From positions 1 to 64,000 of the IMG/VR virus record IMGVR_UViG_3300017971_007885: 64,000 nucleotides of DNA; one strand, 5' to 3'. This document shows positions 29,983 through 55,395 of the stretch, one piece after another. Each line of letters opens with the position of its first letter. Position 1 is the first letter of the stretch. A model generated the notes under the pieces. That model made no database searches, was not told the origin of the DNA, and saw only the letters and a list, made by a program, of their open reading frames with translations. The position numbers were made by a program, and so were the translations under genes. The stretch is from a virus.

Positions 29983-30567
29983 ATGGTTGCAAAAGGGAGC
30001 CATCTATCTGAAGAGCACAAAAAAAAGCTGTCCGTAGCCTTGCGGGGCAATATGAACCGGCTGGATCACGGGGGCCGTTCTAGCCAGATTAAGGCCGTAC
30101 AACCGGTCAAGTGTGATCAAAACTGTGTACTTTGGGACAAATGCCCCAAAAAGATCGAAACGGGATTATCAATTTGTCCGATGAATCAGGAATTCATGGC
30201 CCTTGCGGACACATTGGCCAATGATGCTTTCTACGACCACCACGCCCTTGCCACGTTTTTATCCAGAGTGCTCCAGGTCCAGGGCACCCGCTTCAGCCGG
30301 GCCGCCTTTATAGAGCAGATGGAAGGCGGGGGCGATTTGGATCCCGAGATCACCAAGTTGGGCCAGGCCGTGGCCGGTGACTTGATGCGATTGGCCAGGT
30401 TAGTAGGCCACGACAAGACGGATCCCAAAACCGTGATTGACGCCAGGCAGGTCCACATACATGAGGGGTTGAACGGGAAGGAACGGGGGCGGGTTCTGGA
30501 GATCATTGCTCAGTTGCGTGAAGTGCATCCGGCGCTTGCAGAATCGATCCTTGAGGAAATTGGCTAA
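29983..30567 (+). CDS. probable terminase small subunit
   Basis: position upstream of TerL; NUMOD3-like HLSEEHKKKLS start, Cys cluster, helical C-terminus. Confidence 0.45.
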   Translation: MVAKGSHLSEEHKKKLSVALRGNMNRLDHGGRSSQIKAVQPVKCDQNCVLWDKCPKKIETGLSICPMNQEFMALADTLANDAFYDHHALATFLSRVLQVQGTRFSRAAFIEQMEGGGDLDPEITKLGQAVAGDLMRLARLVGHDKTDPKTVIDARQVHIHEGLNGKERGRVLEIIAQLREVHPALAESILEEIG

Positions 30568-32360
30568 TGAGACAATACATACATGGCCTACACGAGCCGG
30601 GGGGCGAACACTTGATGGTCACGAACCCCGGTTTTTTGCTTTTTACCCACGAGTTGGGTCGGGATCCGGGCAACCATAACGGTTTCGACTATACGCCGTG
30701 GACTTCTCAGGGCTTCCAGGTCATTGCCAGGCTCAACCACGGCTATGGGGCGGCCGGCACGATCCCGCTTCCGGCCTACTATGCCGACTTTGCCCAGAGG
30801 GTGCAAAACTTTGCGGCCAACAGCGTGGGGTGTTACCGGTGGATCATTGGCAATGAGCCAAACCACTCACAGGAGCGTCCAGAAGGCCAACCTATTAGGC
30901 CCGCCCAATATGCCGAGTGCTTCAACATGTGCGCCGATGGGATATTATCAATCGGTGGCTATTGGGATGACATCGTGATCCCGGCTCCGGTGGCCGTGTG
31001 GAATGTTGAGACGACCTATCCGGAGAATCCTTCCGGTGATTGGATCAAGTATTTTACTGACCAATTGGCCGGCTGTGATGAAGCTTTGGTGGGCGGCATA
31101 GCCCTTCACACCTACACCCACGGCAGTGATCCCCTTTTGATCGTGTCAGAGCAGACCATGGATCCCCCCTACCAAGATCGCCGGTACCACTTCCGGGCTT
31201 ACCGGGACTTTATGGCCGTTGTGCCCGATCACTTGGCCAGCCGTCCCGTTTACATCACCGAGACAAACCAGAACGGGCCGTGGTTGAATCAAAACAACGG
31301 TTGGATTCAGGCTGCCATGGCTGAAGTGGATGGGTGGAACCAGGTCAACGATCAGGTGATAGAAGCGTGTATTTGTTACCGGTGGCCACGGTATGACCAA
31401 TGGTACATGGATGGTCTTGGCGGGGTCATGCAGGGTTTTCAAGAAGCGGCGGATTTGGGTTATTATGTTGAAGTGAATGGAGATGGAACGATGCCAGATG
31501 AAGAGTGGGTACGAATATACTTGAACGAGTGCACGAACTTTTACGATCAAGATGGTGTTCCGGAGCAGACGATCCCGGTTGGCACCAGGCTTCACTATCG
31601 CCATCGCCTTGAGGGTCAACCGCCAGGGTATTTTCCACGCCCCGAGTTGGATTTGAAGGACCAAGACCTTGGGCATACCGAGTACCACAGCCCACCGAGG
31701 GCGGCAAGCGGTTTGTATATCAGTGCCGAAGGGCAATTTGCATGGGTCACGGACCGGATTCCGGTCACGCCTGGAAAGAAATTGAGGGCTATTATCAAGT
31801 ACATGCACATTTTCCACGAGGGTGGTCAAAATGGTGGTGGTGGTGCTCAACCGGGCATTGTGATGGGTGATGGTCCATTCGGCGGCGAGAACTATATTTG
31901 GCCGGTGAACGAAGACAGCCCATTTGACGATCCCAACATCGTTTATGGACCTTGGCGATCTTCGAGGATCGGAGCGAGCGACTATCTACAGGATCGTGGT
32001 TGGGCGGATCTGGTTGTGGACGATGTTCAGCACGGGGTCAACTTTGTGCGGCTTATTGTTCGGTGCCATTCTGATGTTCAATCATCGTGTGTTTTTCACA
32101 TAGATGACCTGGAGCTATTCATGCTCACAGACGACGATCCGGGCTTGCCCCCCGATCCGCCGGCCGGTGGTGGGGAATGCGATCCGATCTCCAGCGGTGT
32201 GGCAGATTTGGCGTTGGTTATGGCCAAGTCGTTGCTTTTGTTTTCCGACACGGCCAAGGAAGCGGCCAAGCTTTTTCACAACTTGGTGGATGAGTGGATG
32301 CCGGATGCATCCCCTTCTTTTCTTCAGCGAGTAACCCGGTTTTTTACTAGGAAGGGGTAG
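30567..32360 (+). CDS. GH-A clan glycoside hydrolase-like protein (possible endolysin)
   Basis: IIGNEPN acid/base and VYITETN nucleophile motifs, LHTY; C-terminal beta-rich domain. Confidence 0.65.
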   Translation: MRQYIHGLHEPGGEHLMVTNPGFLLFTHELGRDPGNHNGFDYTPWTSQGFQVIARLNHGYGAAGTIPLPAYYADFAQRVQNFAANSVGCYRWIIGNEPNHSQERPEGQPIRPAQYAECFNMCADGILSIGGYWDDIVIPAPVAVWNVETTYPENPSGDWIKYFTDQLAGCDEALVGGIALHTYTHGSDPLLIVSEQTMDPPYQDRRYHFRAYRDFMAVVPDHLASRPVYITETNQNGPWLNQNNGWIQAAMAEVDGWNQVNDQVIEACICYRWPRYDQWYMDGLGGVMQGFQEAADLGYYVEVNGDGTMPDEEWVRIYLNECTNFYDQDGVPEQTIPVGTRLHYRHRLEGQPPGYFPRPELDLKDQDLGHTEYHSPPRAASGLYISAEGQFAWVTDRIPVTPGKKLRAIIKYMHIFHEGGQNGGGGAQPGIVMGDGPFGGENYIWPVNEDSPFDDPNIVYGPWRSSRIGASDYLQDRGWADLVVDDVQHGVNFVRLIVRCHSDVQSSCVFHIDDLELFMLTDDDPGLPPDPPAGGGECDPISSGVADLALVMAKSLLLFSDTAKEAAKLFHNLVDEWMPDASPSFLQRVTRFFTRKG

Positions 32361-33779
32361 ATGGGTGCAGCGGATCTTGCTCCAAAAAACAAAGATGAGT
32401 TGCACAGTTGGATCAAGGCGTATCTTGGGCTTCACATTCCCAGAGTGCCGGTCTATCCTGGATCTTGCGCACCGTTCGATCTAATCTCGGATATCTATTT
32501 TAGGCGGGTACAAAGGGCGCTTGTATTGGCGTGCCGGGGCGGTGGGAAAACGCTCAATTTTTCATTACTCAACCTGCTACGTTCCAAGTTTCACGAGCGA
32601 TCGGGAACCGGCCATTTTGCAGCGGTGGAAGCACAAGGCGATTGGGGCATGTCCTATCTGAAGACGTGGCTCCAAAAGTCCTATCTTGCCCGTGATATCG
32701 TGAAGGATTACACGGATTACGTGGAGTGGGCCAACGGCTCATGGGTGCGCCGGGGCTCTGGGTACGCTACGAGGGGCGTTACTGCTTCCCACCCCAACCG
32801 ATTGGTGATAGATGAGGTGGACCTTTGGACGCCGGAGCAGTTTGAAACGGCTCAATTTATGGTGTCCGGGACCAAAGAGCATCCGCCCGAGACGTTGATC
32901 GCGTCTACCGCTTACACGGCACATGGCATGATGCTGTCCACATTGCTCCCACAGGCCAAGAAGCGCAATTTTAAGCTTTACCGGTGGACTGTCTTTGAGA
33001 CGTTGGAGCAGTGCCGCAAATGTCGGAAGGCCAAGTGCCCACTTTATCAATGGGAGCATCCACGGACAGGCCAGAAGGCGGCGCTATGTGGGGGTCGGGC
33101 ACTGCACAGTGATGGTTACGTGCCTTTGGACGTGGCCATAGATGAATACTACCGCACCGATGCGGATACTTACCTTGTCCAGAAGCTTCTAGCGGCTCCA
33201 GAGCGTCAACATTTGATCTATCCCAGATTTTTGCCCGATCTTCACGCTCCAGGGCCACCCCCGGAAGACGTAAAGCGGTATGGCCAATACGGGATCGGGG
33301 TTGACTGGGGGTTTGATCATCCCTTGGTGTTTACCGTCTTTGCCGAAATGCCCAACGGGGTGTACTGGGGCATAGAAGAGCATGGGGAACGGTTTGCGAC
33401 TCCGGATCGTGAGGTCGAGATAGCCAAGGATTTTCAAGCCAAGTACGGGGTGGAAGTGCCTTTTTATTGTGGCAAGGATCAACCCAAGAGCATCCAGGCA
33501 TTCTATGAGGCCGGGCTTGTCGTGATCCCCAACTTGGTAGATCGGCGGGACGATGGGCACCGTTATGTCAGGCGGCTTATGGATCCCAACAAGGGGCCGC
33601 TTTTGTACCTTGATCCGGATGAGATGCCCGCCACGGTGCACCAACTTGGGGCTATCCATCGGAACGATCGGGGCAAAGAAGTGCTCAAGGACAACGATTT
33701 TGCCGACTCTAGCCGCCACGTTCTTGCTTCAGCGCAAGAGGCCGGGGGCATTCAGGCGGGCGGGGGATTTATGGTATGA
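32361..33779 (+). CDS. terL: terminase large subunit
   Basis: Walker A CRGGGKT, Walker B LVIDE, coupling AST, nuclease GVDWG and ND.AD. Confidence 0.85.
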   Translation: MGAADLAPKNKDELHSWIKAYLGLHIPRVPVYPGSCAPFDLISDIYFRRVQRALVLACRGGGKTLNFSLLNLLRSKFHERSGTGHFAAVEAQGDWGMSYLKTWLQKSYLARDIVKDYTDYVEWANGSWVRRGSGYATRGVTASHPNRLVIDEVDLWTPEQFETAQFMVSGTKEHPPETLIASTAYTAHGMMLSTLLPQAKKRNFKLYRWTVFETLEQCRKCRKAKCPLYQWEHPRTGQKAALCGGRALHSDGYVPLDVAIDEYYRTDADTYLVQKLLAAPERQHLIYPRFLPDLHAPGPPPEDVKRYGQYGIGVDWGFDHPLVFTVFAEMPNGVYWGIEEHGERFATPDREVEIAKDFQAKYGVEVPFYCGKDQPKSIQAFYEAGLVVIPNLVDRRDDGHRYVRRLMDPNKGPLLYLDPDEMPATVHQLGAIHRNDRGKEVLKDNDFADSSRHVLASAQEAGGIQAGGGFMV

Positions 33780-42511: not shown

Positions 42512-42553
42512 GCGGGCATGCGCTTTACGGGCGCATGCCCGTTTTTGCGTTTT
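42512..42553 (+). terminator. intrinsic terminator/attenuator
   Basis: GCGGGCATGCGC-7nt-GCGCATGCCCGT stem followed by T-rich tract. Confidence 0.7.
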
Positions 42554-42568
42554 GGGAGCAGGTGCATA

Positions 42569-43147
42569 ATGCAACACGGCAGGGCCATGGTGGCATTCTT
42601 TTTGCCCCAGTACGCGAGTGAACAACTGGACTCATTCAAGGAGCACTTTCCGCCAGGCTCTGAAGTGACGCCGCTTCAGGATTATCATATCACCTTGGCC
42701 TATATGCCGGAAGTCAAGGATAAAGAGCTTTTGCGTGAAGTAGTCCGGGGGTTTGCACAAAACGAGCACCCAATATCCGGACAGATCGGTGGTATCGGGC
42801 GTTTTGCCCACGATGAAAAGGGTACAAACCCATTTTACACGTCTTTTGATGCTCCAGTGTTGCCAGGCTTCCGCCAAAGGCTAGTAGAAAAGCTTGGCCA
42901 ATACGGCATTGCGGTTTCAGAATTGCACGGCTTTATTCCACATTGCACCATGGCCTACATTCCAGCCAACACACACAACCCGGCCCTTGTGGTGCCATAT
43001 ATCGGGGTCACTTTTGATTGCATTTGGTTAGCATCCGACGATGATCGGGAACGGTTTCCGTTGGTATCCACGACGATGGAGCTAAAAAAAAGACTCGGGC
43101 CAAGAGCAAAAGCCCTTGCAGGAGTGATAGAGTATGCCAAGTCCTAG
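42569..43147 (+). CDS. 2H phosphoesterase (2'-5' RNA ligase/Acb1-like)
   Basis: two HxT motifs: YHITLAY and PHCTMAY. Confidence 0.8.
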   Translation: MQHGRAMVAFFLPQYASEQLDSFKEHFPPGSEVTPLQDYHITLAYMPEVKDKELLREVVRGFAQNEHPISGQIGGIGRFAHDEKGTNPFYTSFDAPVLPGFRQRLVEKLGQYGIAVSELHGFIPHCTMAYIPANTHNPALVVPYIGVTFDCIWLASDDDRERFPLVSTTMELKKRLGPRAKALAGVIEYAKS

Positions 43148-43577
43148 TAAGCCATGGTTAGCAAGAGTGCTTGTAGCAATCGAGCAATTATCTGGTGCGA
43201 TCGGGGGCGGAAGCGGATCCGCGATCGGGGTGAATCTGGAAGATATCATTGGTGCGGATGCCAATGCCAACTTTGTGGATGAGCCGGCGGCCAACACAGC
43301 GGCGGTTGTGACATTGGCCGCTCCAGGTGCCGGAGTACGTAACGTGATCGGTGTGATTGGTTGGTCCTATGATGGTGAACCGGCCAATGGTTCTTTAACA
43401 ATTGCATCCGGGGGAGCCGACTTTTTCAAGATCGACATAACAACCAGTGGGCCGGGCTTCTATCCTTTTTTGCCCCGCCCCTTGCGTCTTCCAGCGGGCC
43501 AGGCCGTGACGATCACCCTATCGGCGGCAGGAGTTGGGATCAGCGGGATTGTCAATACCCATGCCTGGACAGAGTAG
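43134..43577 (+). CDS. putative virion structural protein
   Basis: Ala/Gly beta-rich, head module. Confidence 0.55.
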   Translation: MPSPSKPWLARVLVAIEQLSGAIGGGSGSAIGVNLEDIIGADANANFVDEPAANTAAVVTLAAPGAGVRNVIGVIGWSYDGEPANGSLTIASGGADFFKIDITTSGPGFYPFLPRPLRLPAGQAVTITLSAAGVGISGIVNTHAWTE

Positions 43578-43586
43578 GGTGGAAGA

Positions 43587-43829
43587 ATGGTTATTCGCTA
43601 TTGGTGGCTTGCAAGACTCATTCAAGCACTTTCTATTTTCGGGCGTTGCGGGACTATTGGCGTATTGCTTGACCTGGATCATGTGTTGGTTCTCTTACTC
43701 GAAGGGAAGCCCCTCACGTGGGAGAACCTTTGCACGAATTCAGGCAGACCGTTCCATATCCCGGCTGTGTTGGTCAGCGGCGGTGTTTTTTGCATTTCTT
43801 GTGCATTGCGTACAGGACGGGCTAATTAG
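43587..43829 (+). CDS. small membrane protein
   Basis: hydrophobic; LLDLDH motif reminiscent of YdjM-type hydrolases. Confidence 0.45.
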   Translation: MVIRYWWLARLIQALSIFGRCGTIGVLLDLDHVLVLLLEGKPLTWENLCTNSGRPFHIPAVLVSGGVFCISCALRTGRAN

Positions 43830-45569
43830 ATGAGCTTATCACTGACAGGGATGCAAGGTCTTCATGGCCTCATAGGTAGAGTGCGGTGGTTGTTGCGGGA
43901 TGACTTTTGCGACACGAGAGCGGCCGGCGCTGTCGATGGCACCCCGGCCACGCCTGGACCTGGAACGAGAACGGTGGTTGACACGGGCAATCACATGTCT
44001 GTGAATGGAGATTTTTTGACCACAGATGGGTCCGTTGCAACAGGAGATCCACGATGCTACTACAATGTTGTGTTTACTAGACAGGCCGGTCTAGTAGCTC
44101 TTTGTGATATTGAAACGAATTCACGGATCTATTTTGGATTTGATAGTGGCGTCGGGGCAGAGCCAGATCTAGCCGCCTTGTCGTTTAACGGAACGCCTCT
44201 TTTTGCTTGGGATGGTGGAGTGGCACGCCAGGTTGGAACCATAGTTCTTGGTGCAAAGTATAAACTGGGCATTGTGTTGCGCACATCAGGGCTGTACTGT
44301 TTCATCAAAGGACAAGCATTCACACATTGGACACTATTGTGGTTCAGTGCCGCAAATAATACAGCAAATTTGTATCTAGGGGCTTGTGGACGAACAGGCA
44401 CACTGGATAGTGATTTTATCCGTGTCCCAGACGCCCTATGGCTCCCAAACCCGCTTGCCCATGACTCTTTCACTCGTGCCAACGGGCCGCTAGGATCAAC
44501 GGAAGATACAGGGCCAGATGGACAACCGTCAACGATCAGGGTGTGGCAGTTGGGTGGGGCGACATGGGCCGTGAGTGCAAATGAAGCCGTCAACACGCCA
44601 ACGTTGGGATCGGAAGAATTGACCAACGGTAACTTTACAGCCTGGACCGGGGATGATCCGGATAATTGGTCCGTTTTACTTGAGGATGTGAACAACTATG
44701 TCACCGAAAATCCGGCCAACAACGCACAAGTTGTGTCGGACGGATCAGCAGGTGTCAATCTCCGGCAGTCTTGCATGGGCGAAGGGTGGTTTCGCATTCA
44801 AGCGGTCGTTTCTGCACATGCCGTTGGCGGGCTTAAAATCTACAACACTGATGGGGAATGGATTTTTCAAAGCGGAAAACCCAATGCGGTTGGAACGTGG
44901 GAGAGTAGCCAATACAACAGCGGTGTAGGAATGTCGCTCATCGTCCAGGCGGCGGCGGCCTGTGATATCACGCTTGATAGTGTCAGCGTGAAACGGCTGA
45001 CCACAAAAGAGCTATTCTCAGCCGTGCAAGTAGCAACGGCAGATGTACTTGCCAGTGTCGAGATTGACGCAATGCCAGTTTCAGGAACTGAATATGCCCA
45101 GGCCGGCCTTATGCTCAACCTTGACGATCCGGACAACCCGCAAAACTATGTGTTAGTCCTTATGGATACAGCACCGTTGTCACTCGGATTTGTGCGAATT
45201 CACAAGTGGGTAGCCGGGGTGAGGACGAATGTTGCAAACACAAGTGTTGCTTATGTACCCGGCGCAACGCTTGTAGCCGTTAAGGATGGCACATCCTATT
45301 CAGTGTACTATAACAACTCGCTCGTAGGAACGACACAGACCATTGCTGATGCCGGGATTATCAATAACACGTTACACGGCATGTTCAGCACGCACGAAGA
45401 CAACCAGTTAGACAACTTTCAGGTGTTCGCTCGTGGAACAGGTAACGAGTACAACCGGCTGGATGCGTGGTCATTTGACGGCAATTGTGCTGCCTGTGTT
45501 TGACTGCTTTTAATGGAATCAGGCGATTTCCTACTACTCGAAAGCGGGGACAAGATTTTATTGGAGTAA
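43830..45569 (+). CDS. virion fibre/decoration protein with in-frame UGA (45501-45503), candidate selenoprotein
   Basis: DSFTRANG and ELTNGNF carbohydrate-binding-type repeats; frame continues past TGA into LLLMESGDFLLLESGDKILLE; hairpin 11 nt after UGA. Confidence 0.65.
45515..45531 (+). promoter_or_regulatory. candidate bacterial SECIS element
   Basis: GGAATC-AGGC-GATTTCC, 17-nt stem-loop with bulged U, 11 nt after UGA. Confidence 0.55.
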
Positions 45570-45573
45570 AACG

Positions 45574-47745
45574 ATGCCCGACACAAAGATATCAAATTTG
45601 ACACCGTTGGCTACCGCCGTTAAAGGTGACGTGCTCCCGATCGTCAACGGGGGCGCAACCAAAAAGATCACGGTTGAAGACTTGTTGCGTTACGAGAACG
45701 TGATCACGGTTGCCAAAAGCGGGCCGGCGGACTATACAACTATTGAAGCGGCTCTTGCTGTAGCGGCGGCTCGTGATGTGATCATGGTTGCGCCGGGTAT
45801 CTATTCTGAAAACAACCCTTTGACCGTGCCCGATCAGGTCACGATCATGGCACTCGGGGAGCAGAACACAACCCGGATAGAAGCAGCCAATGCCAACCAG
45901 GATCTGTTCACGAGTGCTAACTTTTTTATCGTCACGGGCTTTTCTATTGCCGATGTAGCTGGAACTGGTTGGATCATTGACGTAAACGCCGCCGATGCCG
46001 TGATTTTTGAGGACTGTGTTGTCTATGAGTGTGAGCAGGGATTCAGAACGTCTCACGTGTCCGCCACGCTGACCTTGGGCAATATATTCTTTTTGACCTT
46101 GGGCGTTACCAAGACCGATCCGTGCGTTCGGAACAACGCCGGAAACATCACCGTTGCCGGTGGGCGTATTGGCGTAGGCTCTTTGATCGGTTGCGTTTTC
46201 AATGTGGACGGCGCAAATGCGATCACCACCGTGCTTCACTTTCTGACATTTGAAACCACCGTTGACTATGTTGTGGTAGCTGACAACGGGGCACGCTCTG
46301 TTTTTACCGGGTGTTCGTTTGTGGGAATGAACGATGCGGCTTCTTTGGCCGGTGGAAGCGATACGCGATTTGTCGCCACGTCTGTCTTTTTGGCCGGGAA
46401 TGATGCGATCCGAATTGAAAACAGCGGAGCCAACACAAACTTTGTAGGCCAAGGGATCACGGTTGAGTCAACGACTCGCTACGATCTCAACATTTTGAGT
46501 GCAACGGGTACAGTATCGGGGTTTGGACAGTCTGCGCTTGATCAGATGAACTTTGTTACGGGAGCGCAGTTTACAGCCAGCTTTGTGGACTTGAAAGAGG
46601 ACGACGAAGGGCTGAATGTCGTTGGGGAACTTCACGTTGGCATACCGGAACTTGGCGCAGAATCGGTTATGGGCCAGGGCGATAGTTACACACGTGGTAT
46701 GCTTGTCTACACTTATAATCCAGCCGGGCCGGTGTGGGCTGATGTTAGTGTCGCCGCCCGATCTGCTTCCGGGTCCACATTCACATTTCCGGCAGTGGCG
46801 GCAAATAACGCGATCTATGTTGCTTCCAGCTTGGCGGATGCTTCGGACTATTTGCACCACGATGGAATCAAGGCCAGCATTACAACCGCCGCCGTTTTGG
46901 GTGGTGGGTCGATCGTGGTCGAATACTGGAACGGGGCGGCCTGGGTGCCCATTGATCACATGTCCACGCTATCAAATGCCCCCTATACTCAGTATGGAAA
47001 GAATATCTTTGAGCGGACAGGCTCCGAACAAATCCGCTATCCGTTGGCCTTTGTATCGTCTTGGACCAAAAACGATCCAGTGACGCCGGCCATTGGCACA
47101 AATTACTTTTGGATGCGTTTCCGGGTTGTAGGCGGGATTACCACGGCACCGATCTTTGAGCAATTCAAGCTACACACCGATCGCTTTGAGGTTAACGCTG
47201 ATGGCGTCACGGAGTATTTTGGCCATGCCCGCTATCCGCAAGATTTGAGACTAGACTATCGGGAACTAAGCGGCTTTTCTCCAGGCAATCAGAATGTTGC
47301 TTATGGAACCGGGGTCACGTTTGTTTATATCAATAACAAGTTTGTAGATGGCAAAAAGGACGGATTTGGTGTTTACGTGACCATTCCGACAGGTATCGAC
47401 ACAAGTTTGCCACTCCGCTTTGCCTGGAACTGGTATGCAGACACGGCCAATGCCGGGGATGTGGAATTTACTGTAGAAGATATACAGCTTGAGGTAGGTG
47501 ATCTGATAGATGGCACGGCCGGCACCACAACTTATACCACGGTTGAGACTGTCGGGGCTGGAACCAGATACGTTTTCCGCCAGTCTTACCTTGACCTGGA
47601 TATCTCGGATTTGGTGCCTGGGGAAGCCGTGGCCATCGCTCTTTATCGTGATGCAACAGCACCCAATGATCCGCCTGATACACTAAACGGTGATGTTGTG
47701 ATCTTTGGTGATATCCGGGCGATCGGTTACTTTTGGCGGCCATGA
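45574..47745 (+). CDS. beta-helix (pectinesterase/pectin-lyase-like) spike protein
   Basis: N-terminal KISNL...KKITV domain; TVAKSGPADYTTIEAAL...VAPGIYSE. Confidence 0.7.
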   Translation: MPDTKISNLTPLATAVKGDVLPIVNGGATKKITVEDLLRYENVITVAKSGPADYTTIEAALAVAAARDVIMVAPGIYSENNPLTVPDQVTIMALGEQNTTRIEAANANQDLFTSANFFIVTGFSIADVAGTGWIIDVNAADAVIFEDCVVYECEQGFRTSHVSATLTLGNIFFLTLGVTKTDPCVRNNAGNITVAGGRIGVGSLIGCVFNVDGANAITTVLHFLTFETTVDYVVVADNGARSVFTGCSFVGMNDAASLAGGSDTRFVATSVFLAGNDAIRIENSGANTNFVGQGITVESTTRYDLNILSATGTVSGFGQSALDQMNFVTGAQFTASFVDLKEDDEGLNVVGELHVGIPELGAESVMGQGDSYTRGMLVYTYNPAGPVWADVSVAARSASGSTFTFPAVAANNAIYVASSLADASDYLHHDGIKASITTAAVLGGGSIVVEYWNGAAWVPIDHMSTLSNAPYTQYGKNIFERTGSEQIRYPLAFVSSWTKNDPVTPAIGTNYFWMRFRVVGGITTAPIFEQFKLHTDRFEVNADGVTEYFGHARYPQDLRLDYRELSGFSPGNQNVAYGTGVTFVYINNKFVDGKKDGFGVYVTIPTGIDTSLPLRFAWNWYADTANAGDVEFTVEDIQLEVGDLIDGTAGTTTYTTVETVGAGTRYVFRQSYLDLDISDLVPGEAVAIALYRDATAPNDPPDTLNGDVVIFGDIRAIGYFWRP

Positions 47746-54610: not shown

Positions 54611-55156
54611 ATGGAACAAAGTACACGGATGGGGTTGGTTGAGTACATAGGAGCCAAGACGGCTTCTTTCTCAGTAGCCTATAACCCAACTCAGGGCCGG
54701 ACCGTGAACCGGATGTGGGCGGCCATTGGTAACGATCAATCGCCCATGATCAAACAAAGAAGGTGGTTGCCGGAGCCAGAGGCACGATTTTACAACGCTT
54801 TTGCGGACTTTAGGCTTTTGCGATGGGGATCGAGCGTTTCAACCGAACCGGTCAGAACGCCGGTGGTTACTGCATTCTCGGAGCCGATTCCGGAACCGCA
54901 AGCCCTTCCTTTGCACGTGCTTTTACAACAGCAAAGAGATGCAATGATGGCCGTTGCCCCGGCCGGCGCGATCGTGACCAAGGACATAGAAGAGATCGGG
55001 CCGCAATATCTCATGTCAAAATCTGGAACTGTTCACAGGCCAGAATGCTCTTCAGCCAAGAGGATCAAAACGCCGGTAGAATTCCATACGATGGAAGACG
55101 TAACCGCCGATCCGAACTTCAAAAAGTTTCATAGTTGTTGTGAGGGATTAACGTAA
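54611..55156 (+). CDS. hypothetical protein with C-terminal metal-binding motif
   Basis: YIG..T.SF.V N-domain; VHRPEC...HSCC. Confidence 0.6.
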   Translation: MEQSTRMGLVEYIGAKTASFSVAYNPTQGRTVNRMWAAIGNDQSPMIKQRRWLPEPEARFYNAFADFRLLRWGSSVSTEPVRTPVVTAFSEPIPEPQALPLHVLLQQQRDAMMAVAPAGAIVTKDIEEIGPQYLMSKSGTVHRPECSSAKRIKTPVEFHTMEDVTADPNFKKFHSCCEGLT

Positions 55157-55395
55157 TGGGTTGAGGGTGCCCAACTCGGACGGGTCCGAGCAGAACCAGG
55201 CCACGGCGGATTTTCAAACCAGATCCAACGTGGAAGCAGATCCTGTACATCGGTGGGCGTGCGGGCACGTTTACCGTGCCGGGAGGATATACCGGCCAAG
55301 ATTACGCTATTTGTCCAAATACGCTTATACCAGTGCACCCACGGGACATGCCTTTTTTTGAGGGTAGGCCAAGGGAGTATAAAACAGTATGGTGA
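55156..55395 (+). CDS. 79-aa candidate selenoprotein (M-G-U-G-C...), missed by ORF track
   Basis: TAATG-coupled start, GAGGG RBS, TGA at codon 3, 76 further open codons, stop overlaps next ATG; SECIS-like hairpin. Confidence 0.7.
55175..55190 (+). promoter_or_regulatory. candidate bacterial SECIS element
   Basis: CTCGGAC-GG-GTCCGAG perfect inverted repeat 10 nt after UGA. Confidence 0.65.

What the first reader, a model, noticed from the sequence alone, without database searches (positions are those of the whole stretch)
45480..45574. UGA recoding would add a C-terminal LLLESGD anchor to a virion protein (second selenocysteine candidate)
Seen: gene 43830 reads ...GNCAACV-TGA-LLLMESGDFLLLESGDKILLE-TAA in one frame, ending 4 nt before the next ATG. 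After an 11-nt spacer the UGA is followed by a 17-nt stem-loop (GGAATC-AGGC-GATTTCC) with a bulged U and GG in the loop. Established: this spacing and size resemble the E. coli fdhF SECIS. From my recollection of phage proteins, LL.E.G..LL.E tails commonly precede genes starting KIS.L, as the next gene does here. Inference: Sec insertion (CxxC-V-U) or readthrough is needed to make the tail that anchors the beta-helix spike, possibly a selenium-dependent switch in virion composition.
Basis: partly seen in the sequence, partly recalled or inferred. Interest (0 to 1): 0.88.

Follow-up and report, generated by a model that had tools for sequence, protein, structure and literature searches.

The report
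Stop codon cuts off phage docking tail
A real TGA stop codon separates a phage tail-type protein from a short, intact "LLLE-G" peptide that in other phages is fused to proteins just upstream of fibre or spike genes; nothing supports selenocysteine, so this is a truncated or leaky-stop gene.

Summary
Gene 43830-45503 ends at TGA. Twenty-one in-frame codons (LLLMESGDFLLLESGDKILLE) follow, then TAA, and 4 nt later the next gene starts MPDTKISNL. The TGA stands in contigs of three metagenome runs.

The tail is a real module.
- The nearest relative (45% identity) carries it fused, with no stop.
- A profile of 41 tails from other phages scores it 35 bits; the best background score is 3 bits.
- About 32 of 37 such C-terminal tails in IMG/VR are followed at once by a gene with the same N-terminal domain.

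The selenocysteine reading fails.
- TGA aligns with Gly/Pro in the relative, not Cys.
- The hairpin is weak (-3.9 kcal/mol, rank 12 of 23 among TGA stops here).
- Rfam has no match, and the phage has no tRNA-Sec.
- TGA is an ordinary stop for 23 of 61 genes.

No other TGA-interrupted tail turned up in three IMG/VR scans. Most likely a lineage-specific nonsense change (GGA to TGA type) cut the tail off. Tailed protein can then arise only by ordinary leak at the weak UGA-C stop. A selected readthrough isoform stays possible, at about 0.3.

The scan's first readers noted LLLEDG boxes in seven other genomes.

The parts
43830..45503 (+). Carrier gene, 557 aa: an all-beta protein with three ConA/LamG-like jelly-roll domains, probably a tail fibre or adhesin-type virion protein.
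   Evidence: ORF. AF2 model pLDDT 75.5. Foldseek matches to LamG/ConA-like phage minor tail, tail fibre and adhesin proteins. The family has 4,021 cluster representatives.
45501..45504 (+). In-frame TGA followed by C (UGA-C). It lies in the linker between the body and the tail.
   Evidence: Identical in contigs of three metagenome runs. Aligns with Gly/Pro of P0003.
45504..45569 (+). Twenty-one-codon tail LLLMESG-DF-LLLESG-DK-ILLE plus TAA: an intact member of the LLLE.G tail class.
   Evidence: Scores 35.4 bits against a profile of 41 foreign tails. It is the only such motif in the 100-kb genome.
45515..45531 (+). Weak hairpin proposed as a SECIS. It is judged to be chance structure inside the tail coding sequence.
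   Evidence: -3.9 kcal/mol and rank 12 of 23. z = +0.34. No Rfam match.
45563..45566 (+). GGAG Shine-Dalgarno-like site for the next gene, inside the last tail codons and 7 nt before the ATG.
   Evidence: Read from the sequence.
45574..47745 (+). Downstream 723-aa gene with a KIS.L-type N-terminal domain (MPDTKISNLTPLAT..PIVNGGATKKITV) and a probable beta-helix body: a spike or fibre.
   Evidence: Weak DUF1565 and pectinesterase hits. PHROG tail fibre. The N-domain is shared with 61 viral loci, and with cultured phages. It is the only such gene in the genome.

Best explanation
The TGA is an ordinary stop codon, so the main product is the 557-aa tail-less protein. The 21 codons behind it are a docking-type tail that was once fused to this protein, as it still is in the nearest relative. 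A lineage-specific nonsense change in the linker cut the tail off; Gly GGA to TGA is the one-step route. The tail has not yet decayed. Tail-bearing protein can now arise only by ordinary near-cognate readthrough, probably Trp-tRNA, at a weak UGA-C stop. Shown: the stop is real; the tail is intact and is a member of its class; the relative has the fused form; TGA is a normal stop in this phage. Inferred: the direction of change (sense to stop), that it is recent, and that the tail docks the carrier to the downstream KIS.L protein.
For: P0003/G001 (45% identity) has the tail in one open frame, followed by a MADQKITDL gene, and TGA aligns with Gly/Pro. No other family member has a tail or a KIS.L neighbour: about 35 loci and none of the other listed representatives among the best 150. 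So the body works without a tail. TGA ends 23 of 61 genes here, often in ATGA overlaps. Three IMG/VR scans for TGA one to three codons before such a tail found 0, 0 and 1 hit, and that one was a chance hit in AT-rich DNA. The stop is therefore not a conserved feature. There is no stimulatory RNA structure. The three contigs that hold the stretch are 100% identical, so they sample one young clone and a recent mutation would be shared by all.
Against: The tail shows no decay (35.4 bits). Its end still sits 4 nt before the next gene. It is the only tail in a genome that keeps an intact KIS.L gene. UGA with +4 C is the documented weak stop context in bacteria (PMC5289835). All of this fits a maintained leaky stop equally well. 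The age of the stop cannot be measured, because no relative closer than 45% identity exists.
Confidence: 0.5

Rival explanations
1. Selected stop-codon readthrough without selenocysteine. The weak UGA-C stop is kept so that a minor fraction of the protein carries the tail, giving two isoforms, as with the Q-beta A1 protein. The tailed isoform links the carrier to the KIS.L spike.
For: UGA-C context (PMC5289835). The tail is intact and 67% identical to G001's tail, against 45-49% for the body. It is the only tail and the only KIS.L gene in the genome. The allele is present in three metagenome runs.
Against: The stop is not conserved in the one tail-bearing relative. No analogue was found in IMG/VR. 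There is no stimulatory structure. The C at +4 is simply the first base of a Leu codon. The three contigs are clonal. KIS.L phages often lack any tail: 0 of 5 records checked.
Confidence: 0.3
2. Selenocysteine insertion at UGA, directed by the downstream hairpin acting as a SECIS.
For: In-frame UGA; a 17-nt hairpin 11 nt downstream; nearby Cys residues (CAACV).
Against: Homologous position is Gly/Pro, not Cys, and the CxxC is absent in G001. The hairpin is -3.9 kcal/mol and rank 12 of 23, with z = +0.34. From my own knowledge of the fdhF SECIS, its loop AGGC lacks the GU of that element, and the fold needs no bulged U. No Rfam match. No tRNA-Sec in the 100-kb record; the best match is 16 bits against a 47-bit cut-off. 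The other Sec candidate in this genome has no homologue.
Confidence: 0.02
3. Termination and reinitiation. Ribosomes stopping at TGA restart at ATG 45513 and make a free 18-aa peptide (MESGDF..ILLE), a minimal version of the small tail-bearing proteins seen in other phages.
For: About a third of C-terminal tails sit on small ORFs of 47-69 aa. The ATG lies 9 nt after the TGA.
Against: There is no Shine-Dalgarno site before that ATG. The peptide would lack the first LL of unit 1, and also the 25-45-aa N-terminal part that all small carriers have.
Confidence: 0.05
4. Sequencing or assembly error, or compensating indels in the T-runs.
For: Short T-runs flank the TGA.
Against: Contigs from three runs are identical, with no indel or alternative base. 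The zero-frame reading gives a perfect motif.
Confidence: 0.03

Closest known systems
Q-beta coat protein / A1 readthrough protein (leaky UGA read by Trp-tRNA)
   Same: An in-frame UGA ends a virion protein, and reading it through would add a C-terminal extension with a plausible structural role. UGA misreading by tRNA-Trp, and readthrough in a coliphage, are cited in PMC5289835.
   Different: Here the extension is 21 aa, not a domain. The stop is not conserved in relatives. No product has been shown. This is a dsDNA tailed phage.
E. coli fdhF-type bacterial SECIS selenoprotein genes
   Same: In-frame UGA with a small hairpin starting 11 nt downstream.
   Different: The hairpin is weak and not distinctive. 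The homologous residue is Gly/Pro. No Sec machinery was seen. TGA is an ordinary stop elsewhere in the phage.
LLLE.G-repeat tails and boxes of phage tail-region proteins next to KIS.L-type fibre genes. I found no Pfam or PHROG family and no paper for these.
   Same: The window's tail has the full pattern (two LL.E.G units plus a final LLE), the usual position directly before a KIS.L gene, and a carrier of tail-protein type.
   Different: It is the only case found in which a stop codon separates the tail from its carrier.
ConA/LamG-like jelly-roll phage minor tail, adhesin and fibre proteins
   Same: Fold class of the 557-aa body.
   Different: No Pfam or PHROG hit by sequence. TM-scores are low because the match is domain by domain.

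Membership tests
Bacterial selenoprotein gene (UGA-Sec with SECIS) | In-frame UGA inside a continuous coding frame | tested here: met
Bacterial selenoprotein gene (UGA-Sec with SECIS) | A stable, specific SECIS stem-loop directly downstream of the UGA | tested here: not met
   The hairpin is at the right distance but only -3.9 kcal/mol and rank 12 of 23. The region has z = +0.34. No Rfam match at E up to 10.
Bacterial selenoprotein gene (UGA-Sec with SECIS) | Cys or Sec at the homologous position in relatives | tested here: not met
   Gly/Pro in P0003, the only relative that reaches this position.
Bacterial selenoprotein gene (UGA-Sec with SECIS) | tRNA-Sec and SelA/SelB/SelD available | tested here: inconclusive
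   No tRNA at all in the phage record, and the best tRNA-Sec match is 16 bits against a 47-bit cut-off. The host is unknown. SelA, SelB and SelD were not searched.
Programmed stop-codon readthrough (Q-beta A1 type) | Leaky stop codon in a weak context | tested here: met
   UGA with +4 C. This context is documented as inefficient in bacteria (PMC5289835).
Programmed stop-codon readthrough (Q-beta A1 type) | The extension is a conserved, functional peptide | tested here: met
   35.4 bits against the foreign-tail profile. Fused in P0003.
Programmed stop-codon readthrough (Q-beta A1 type) | The stop codon is conserved among relatives or recurs in analogous genes | tested here: not met
   Sense codon in P0003. 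No true analogue in three IMG/VR scans.
Programmed stop-codon readthrough (Q-beta A1 type) | The extended product is detected | not testable with these tools
   This needs mass spectrometry or a reporter assay.
LLLE.G tail / KIS.L gene module | At least two [LIM]L.E.G units plus a final LLE at the end of an ORF | tested here: met
LLLE.G tail / KIS.L gene module | Followed within about 50 nt by a gene with the KIS.L N-domain | tested here: met
   4-nt gap. The same arrangement holds for about 32 of 37 tails and 9 of 9.
LLLE.G tail / KIS.L gene module | Tail continuous with its carrier protein | tested here: not met
   A TGA lies one codon before unit 1.

The most novel reading that the evidence does not exclude
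The weak UGA-C stop is maintained so that only a minor fraction of the LamG-type tail protein carries the LLLE.G docking tail. This would set how many copies are coupled to the KIS.L beta-helix spike. It would be a readthrough-controlled virion stoichiometry in a dsDNA tailed phage, built on a widespread and so far undescribed plug-and-socket pair (LLLE.G tail and KIS.L N-domain).
Probability: 0.3. Interest if true: 0.7.

Novelty: new variant of a known kind. Interest (0 to 1): 0.4.

Why it matters
The selenocysteine claim, which carried the high first-stage score, does not hold. What remains has two parts.

First, this is a clean natural case where a conserved peptide module sits behind a weak UGA-C stop. 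That makes it a simple test bed for whether a tailed phage uses stop-codon leak to make a minor structural isoform.

Second, and more generally, the LLLE.G tail is tightly coupled to a downstream gene with a KIS.L-type N-domain.
- It occurs on unrelated carriers: small ORFs of 47-69 aa and lambda FII-like head-tail attachment proteins.
- It also occurs as an insertion in lambda gpL-like and Phage_stabilise-family (PF11134) proteins.
- I found no Pfam or PHROG family and no paper for it.

If the pair is a portable dock for fibres and spikes, it would help to read phage receptor-binding modules and to design fibre swaps in laboratory phages.

Tried and rejected
The four contigs that hold the identical 557-aa protein could not be fetched.
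- tblastn of the carrier and of the downstream gene against 50,697 phage records gave no match.
- Pfam and PHROGs gave nothing for the carrier, and Pfam gave nothing for the tail.
- Complex prediction with G001's tail (three copies) and its KIS.L N-domain (three copies) returned 'no answer', score 0.03. This is not evidence either way.
- No RNA holder was listed among the sequencing runs, so nothing can be said on expression.
- The PDB profile search with the tail gave only spurious TALE-repeat hits. The search with the KIS.L N-domain gave only a weak lead (E 0.58) to crAss001 tail fibre gp22, residues 27-70.
- Paper searches for LLLEDG-type and KISDL-type strings found nothing relevant.
- Alternative genetic code (TGA as Trp or Gly) is rejected: 23 of 61 genes end at TGA, and the extensions are short or overlap the next gene.
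- A +1 frameshift at GTT-TGA-C is rejected: the +1 frame stops after four codons, and the tail lies in the zero frame.
- The metagenome scan and the 1.84-billion-protein profile search found no further tail-bearing member of the family.

Full report
**1. The observation**

The window is the first 64 kb of a 100,482-bp IMG/VR virus record, with all genes on the + strand. ATG 43830 opens a 557-codon frame ending ..GNCAACV, with TGA at 45501-45503 and C at +4. The same frame runs on for 21 codons, LLLMESG-DF-LLLESG-DK-ILLE, to TAA at 45567-45569. The next gene starts 4 nt later at 45574; it is 723 aa and begins MPDTKISNL... A GGAG for that gene lies inside the last tail codons. The hairpin GGAATCAGGCGATTTCC starts 11 nt after the TGA.

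Contigs from three metagenome runs of three studies (two sediment, one seawater) match the stretch without a single difference. Two of these runs may be the source of the record. So the TGA is real, but the population sampled is effectively one clone.

**2. TGA is a normal stop in this phage**

Of 61 long + strand ORFs, 23 end in TGA, 23 in TAA and 15 in TAG. Many TGAs sit in ATGA overlaps, and reading them through gives short or overlapping extensions. ARAGORN finds no tRNA in the whole record. The tRNA-Sec model gives only a 16-bit tRNA-like fragment, against a cut-off of 47 bits. The other 'Sec candidate' of this genome (55156) has no homologue. A changed genetic code or a phage suppressor is therefore not supported.

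**3. The hairpin is not a SECIS**

On its own it folds at -3.9 kcal/mol. The 40 nt after this TGA rank 12th of 23 among all TGA stops in the window. The region 45495-45580 has z = +0.34 against shuffles, and Rfam gives nothing at E up to 10. From my own knowledge of the fdhF element, the loop AGGC lacks the GU of that element, and the fold needs no bulged U.

**4. The tail is real and was once fused**

The protein family is large: 48 word-index hits and 4,021 cluster representatives by HMMER. Almost all members end shortly after a conserved ..RGxGxEY..LD.. motif.

Only one relative carries a tail. This is P0003 (45% identity), on a 54-kb contig with terminal repeats. It continues without any stop as ..CPAVPPGVMLLETG-VDQ-LLLEDG-DG-IELEDFT, and its stop overlaps the start of a gene beginning MADQKITDL. 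In the alignment the TGA falls on Gly/Pro, and the CxxC is not conserved. The tail is about 67% identical between the two phages, against 45-49% for the body.

None of about 35 other family loci has a tail or a KIS.L neighbour. None of the other listed representatives among the best 150 has a tail either.

**5. The tail belongs to a widespread, specific module**

- Starting from the KIS.L N-domain, I collected 61 viral loci. A strict tail definition (two or more units in the last 32 residues of an ORF) found 9 tails in 172 kb, and all of them end within 15 nt of the KIS.L start. It found none in 297 kb of control loci.
In the 80 loci returned, 37 are C-terminal tails. 23 of these are followed by a KIS.L-type gene by regex, and about 32 by eye, usually at -1 to +12 nt.
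- The carriers are unrelated to one another. They include ORFs of 47-69 aa, lambda FII-like Phage_attach proteins, and proteins of up to 716 aa. The same box is inserted in Phage_tail_L and Phage_stabilise proteins, or sits at N-termini.
- A profile of 41 distinct foreign tails scores the window's tail at 35.4 bits. The training tails score 30.7-48.7 bits, and the best of 2,280 other ORF ends of this genome scores 3.3 bits.
- It is the only such motif in the genome, and 45574 is the only KIS.L gene.
- The dependence runs one way. Five KIS.L-bearing records, one of them complete, have no such motif at all.
- The first readers of this scan noted LLLEDG boxes in seven other genomes. My counts agree with them.

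**6. What the proteins are**

AF2 models the body as three jelly-roll domains (pLDDT 75.5) and the tail as disordered. Foldseek finds ConA/LamG-like phage minor tail, tail fibre and adhesin proteins. The downstream protein has weak DUF1565 and pectinesterase hits and a PHROG tail-fibre hit. KIS.L N-domains occur in proteins annotated as structural or minor tail proteins in cultured Flavobacterium phages, and in a hypothetical protein of phage DSL-LC05. 'Virion protein' and 'spike' are therefore plausible but not proven. That the tail docks onto the KIS.L domain is inferred from gene adjacency only.

**7. The stop: programmed or accidental?**

Three IMG/VR scans for TGA one, two or three codons before such a tail gave 0, 0 and 1 hit, and the single hit was a chance match in AT-rich DNA. 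The stop is therefore unique to this phage.

One base change from Gly GGA gives TGA, and the +4 C is simply the first base of a Leu codon. So neither the codon nor its context needs selection to explain it. The body of the family works without a tail.

Against that, the tail shows no decay. UGA-C is the documented weak stop in bacteria and is misread by tRNA-Trp (PMC5289835). And the only tail of the genome lies behind this stop.

I weigh a recent nonsense change, with only incidental leak, at about 0.5, a selected leaky stop at about 0.3, and selenocysteine at about 0.02.

**8. Verdict**

The 'needs readthrough to make a conserved tail' reading holds as a description; its function is undecided. 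The more general result is the LLLE.G tail / KIS.L gene coupling.

Noticed in passing
IMG/VR loci L122-L200, L040, L059, L073, L074, L078, L090, L094: LLLE.G..LLLE.G boxes are common in phage tail regions. As C-terminal tails they are almost always followed at once by a gene with a KIS.L-type N-domain. They sit on ORFs of 47-69 aa and on Phage_attach (lambda FII-like) proteins, and as insertions in Phage_tail_L and Phage_stabilise proteins. I found no family model and no paper for them.
   Followed up: partly
window 30567-33779: ORF 30567-32360 ends in TAG and is followed, in the same frame and with no gap, by ATG 32361 of a terminase-large-subunit-like ORF. The PHROG match covers only the C-terminal part of the terminase profile. 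This could be two adjacent genes or a split or read-through terminase.
   Followed up: no
window 43587-43829, and L033 1505-1789: An 80-aa hydrophobic ORF just upstream of the carrier gene has a clear counterpart in the relative G001 (shared ..TWENL..GRP.H.P.VL.SG.. stretch), where it lies after the KIS.L gene. It is probably a small membrane protein. It also lies in frame with the TAG-terminated gene 43134-43577.
   Followed up: no
window 55156-55392: The genome's other 'selenoprotein candidate' (M-G-TGA-G-C..) has no homologue among proteins of 43-139 aa in the 5.8-billion-protein index. No support for it as a gene was found.
   Followed up: partly
G000 88576-88646 (beyond the window; L120 1501-1571): A tRNA-like fragment with a good T-arm (GGGTTCGATTCCC) but no full tRNA: ARAGORN finds none, and the tRNA-Sec model gives 16 bits. 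It may be a remnant of an integration site in a record that IMG/VR classes as a provirus.
   Followed up: partly
window 42518-43147: A LigT-like 2'-5' RNA ligase / phosphoesterase gene (PF13563, E 2e-10) sits among the structural genes.
   Followed up: no
proteins P0052-P0183: The 557-aa LamG-type module also occurs as one segment of giant proteins of up to 4,042 aa, so it is a shuffled building block of large phage or cell-surface proteins.
   Followed up: no
L095 2317-2475 (phage DSL-LC05, OR003940): A cultured phage has a 52-aa ORF ending ..LLCENGDNLVQEDGGLILLE two genes upstream of its KIS.L gene. This is a handy experimental system for the tail / N-domain idea.
   Followed up: no
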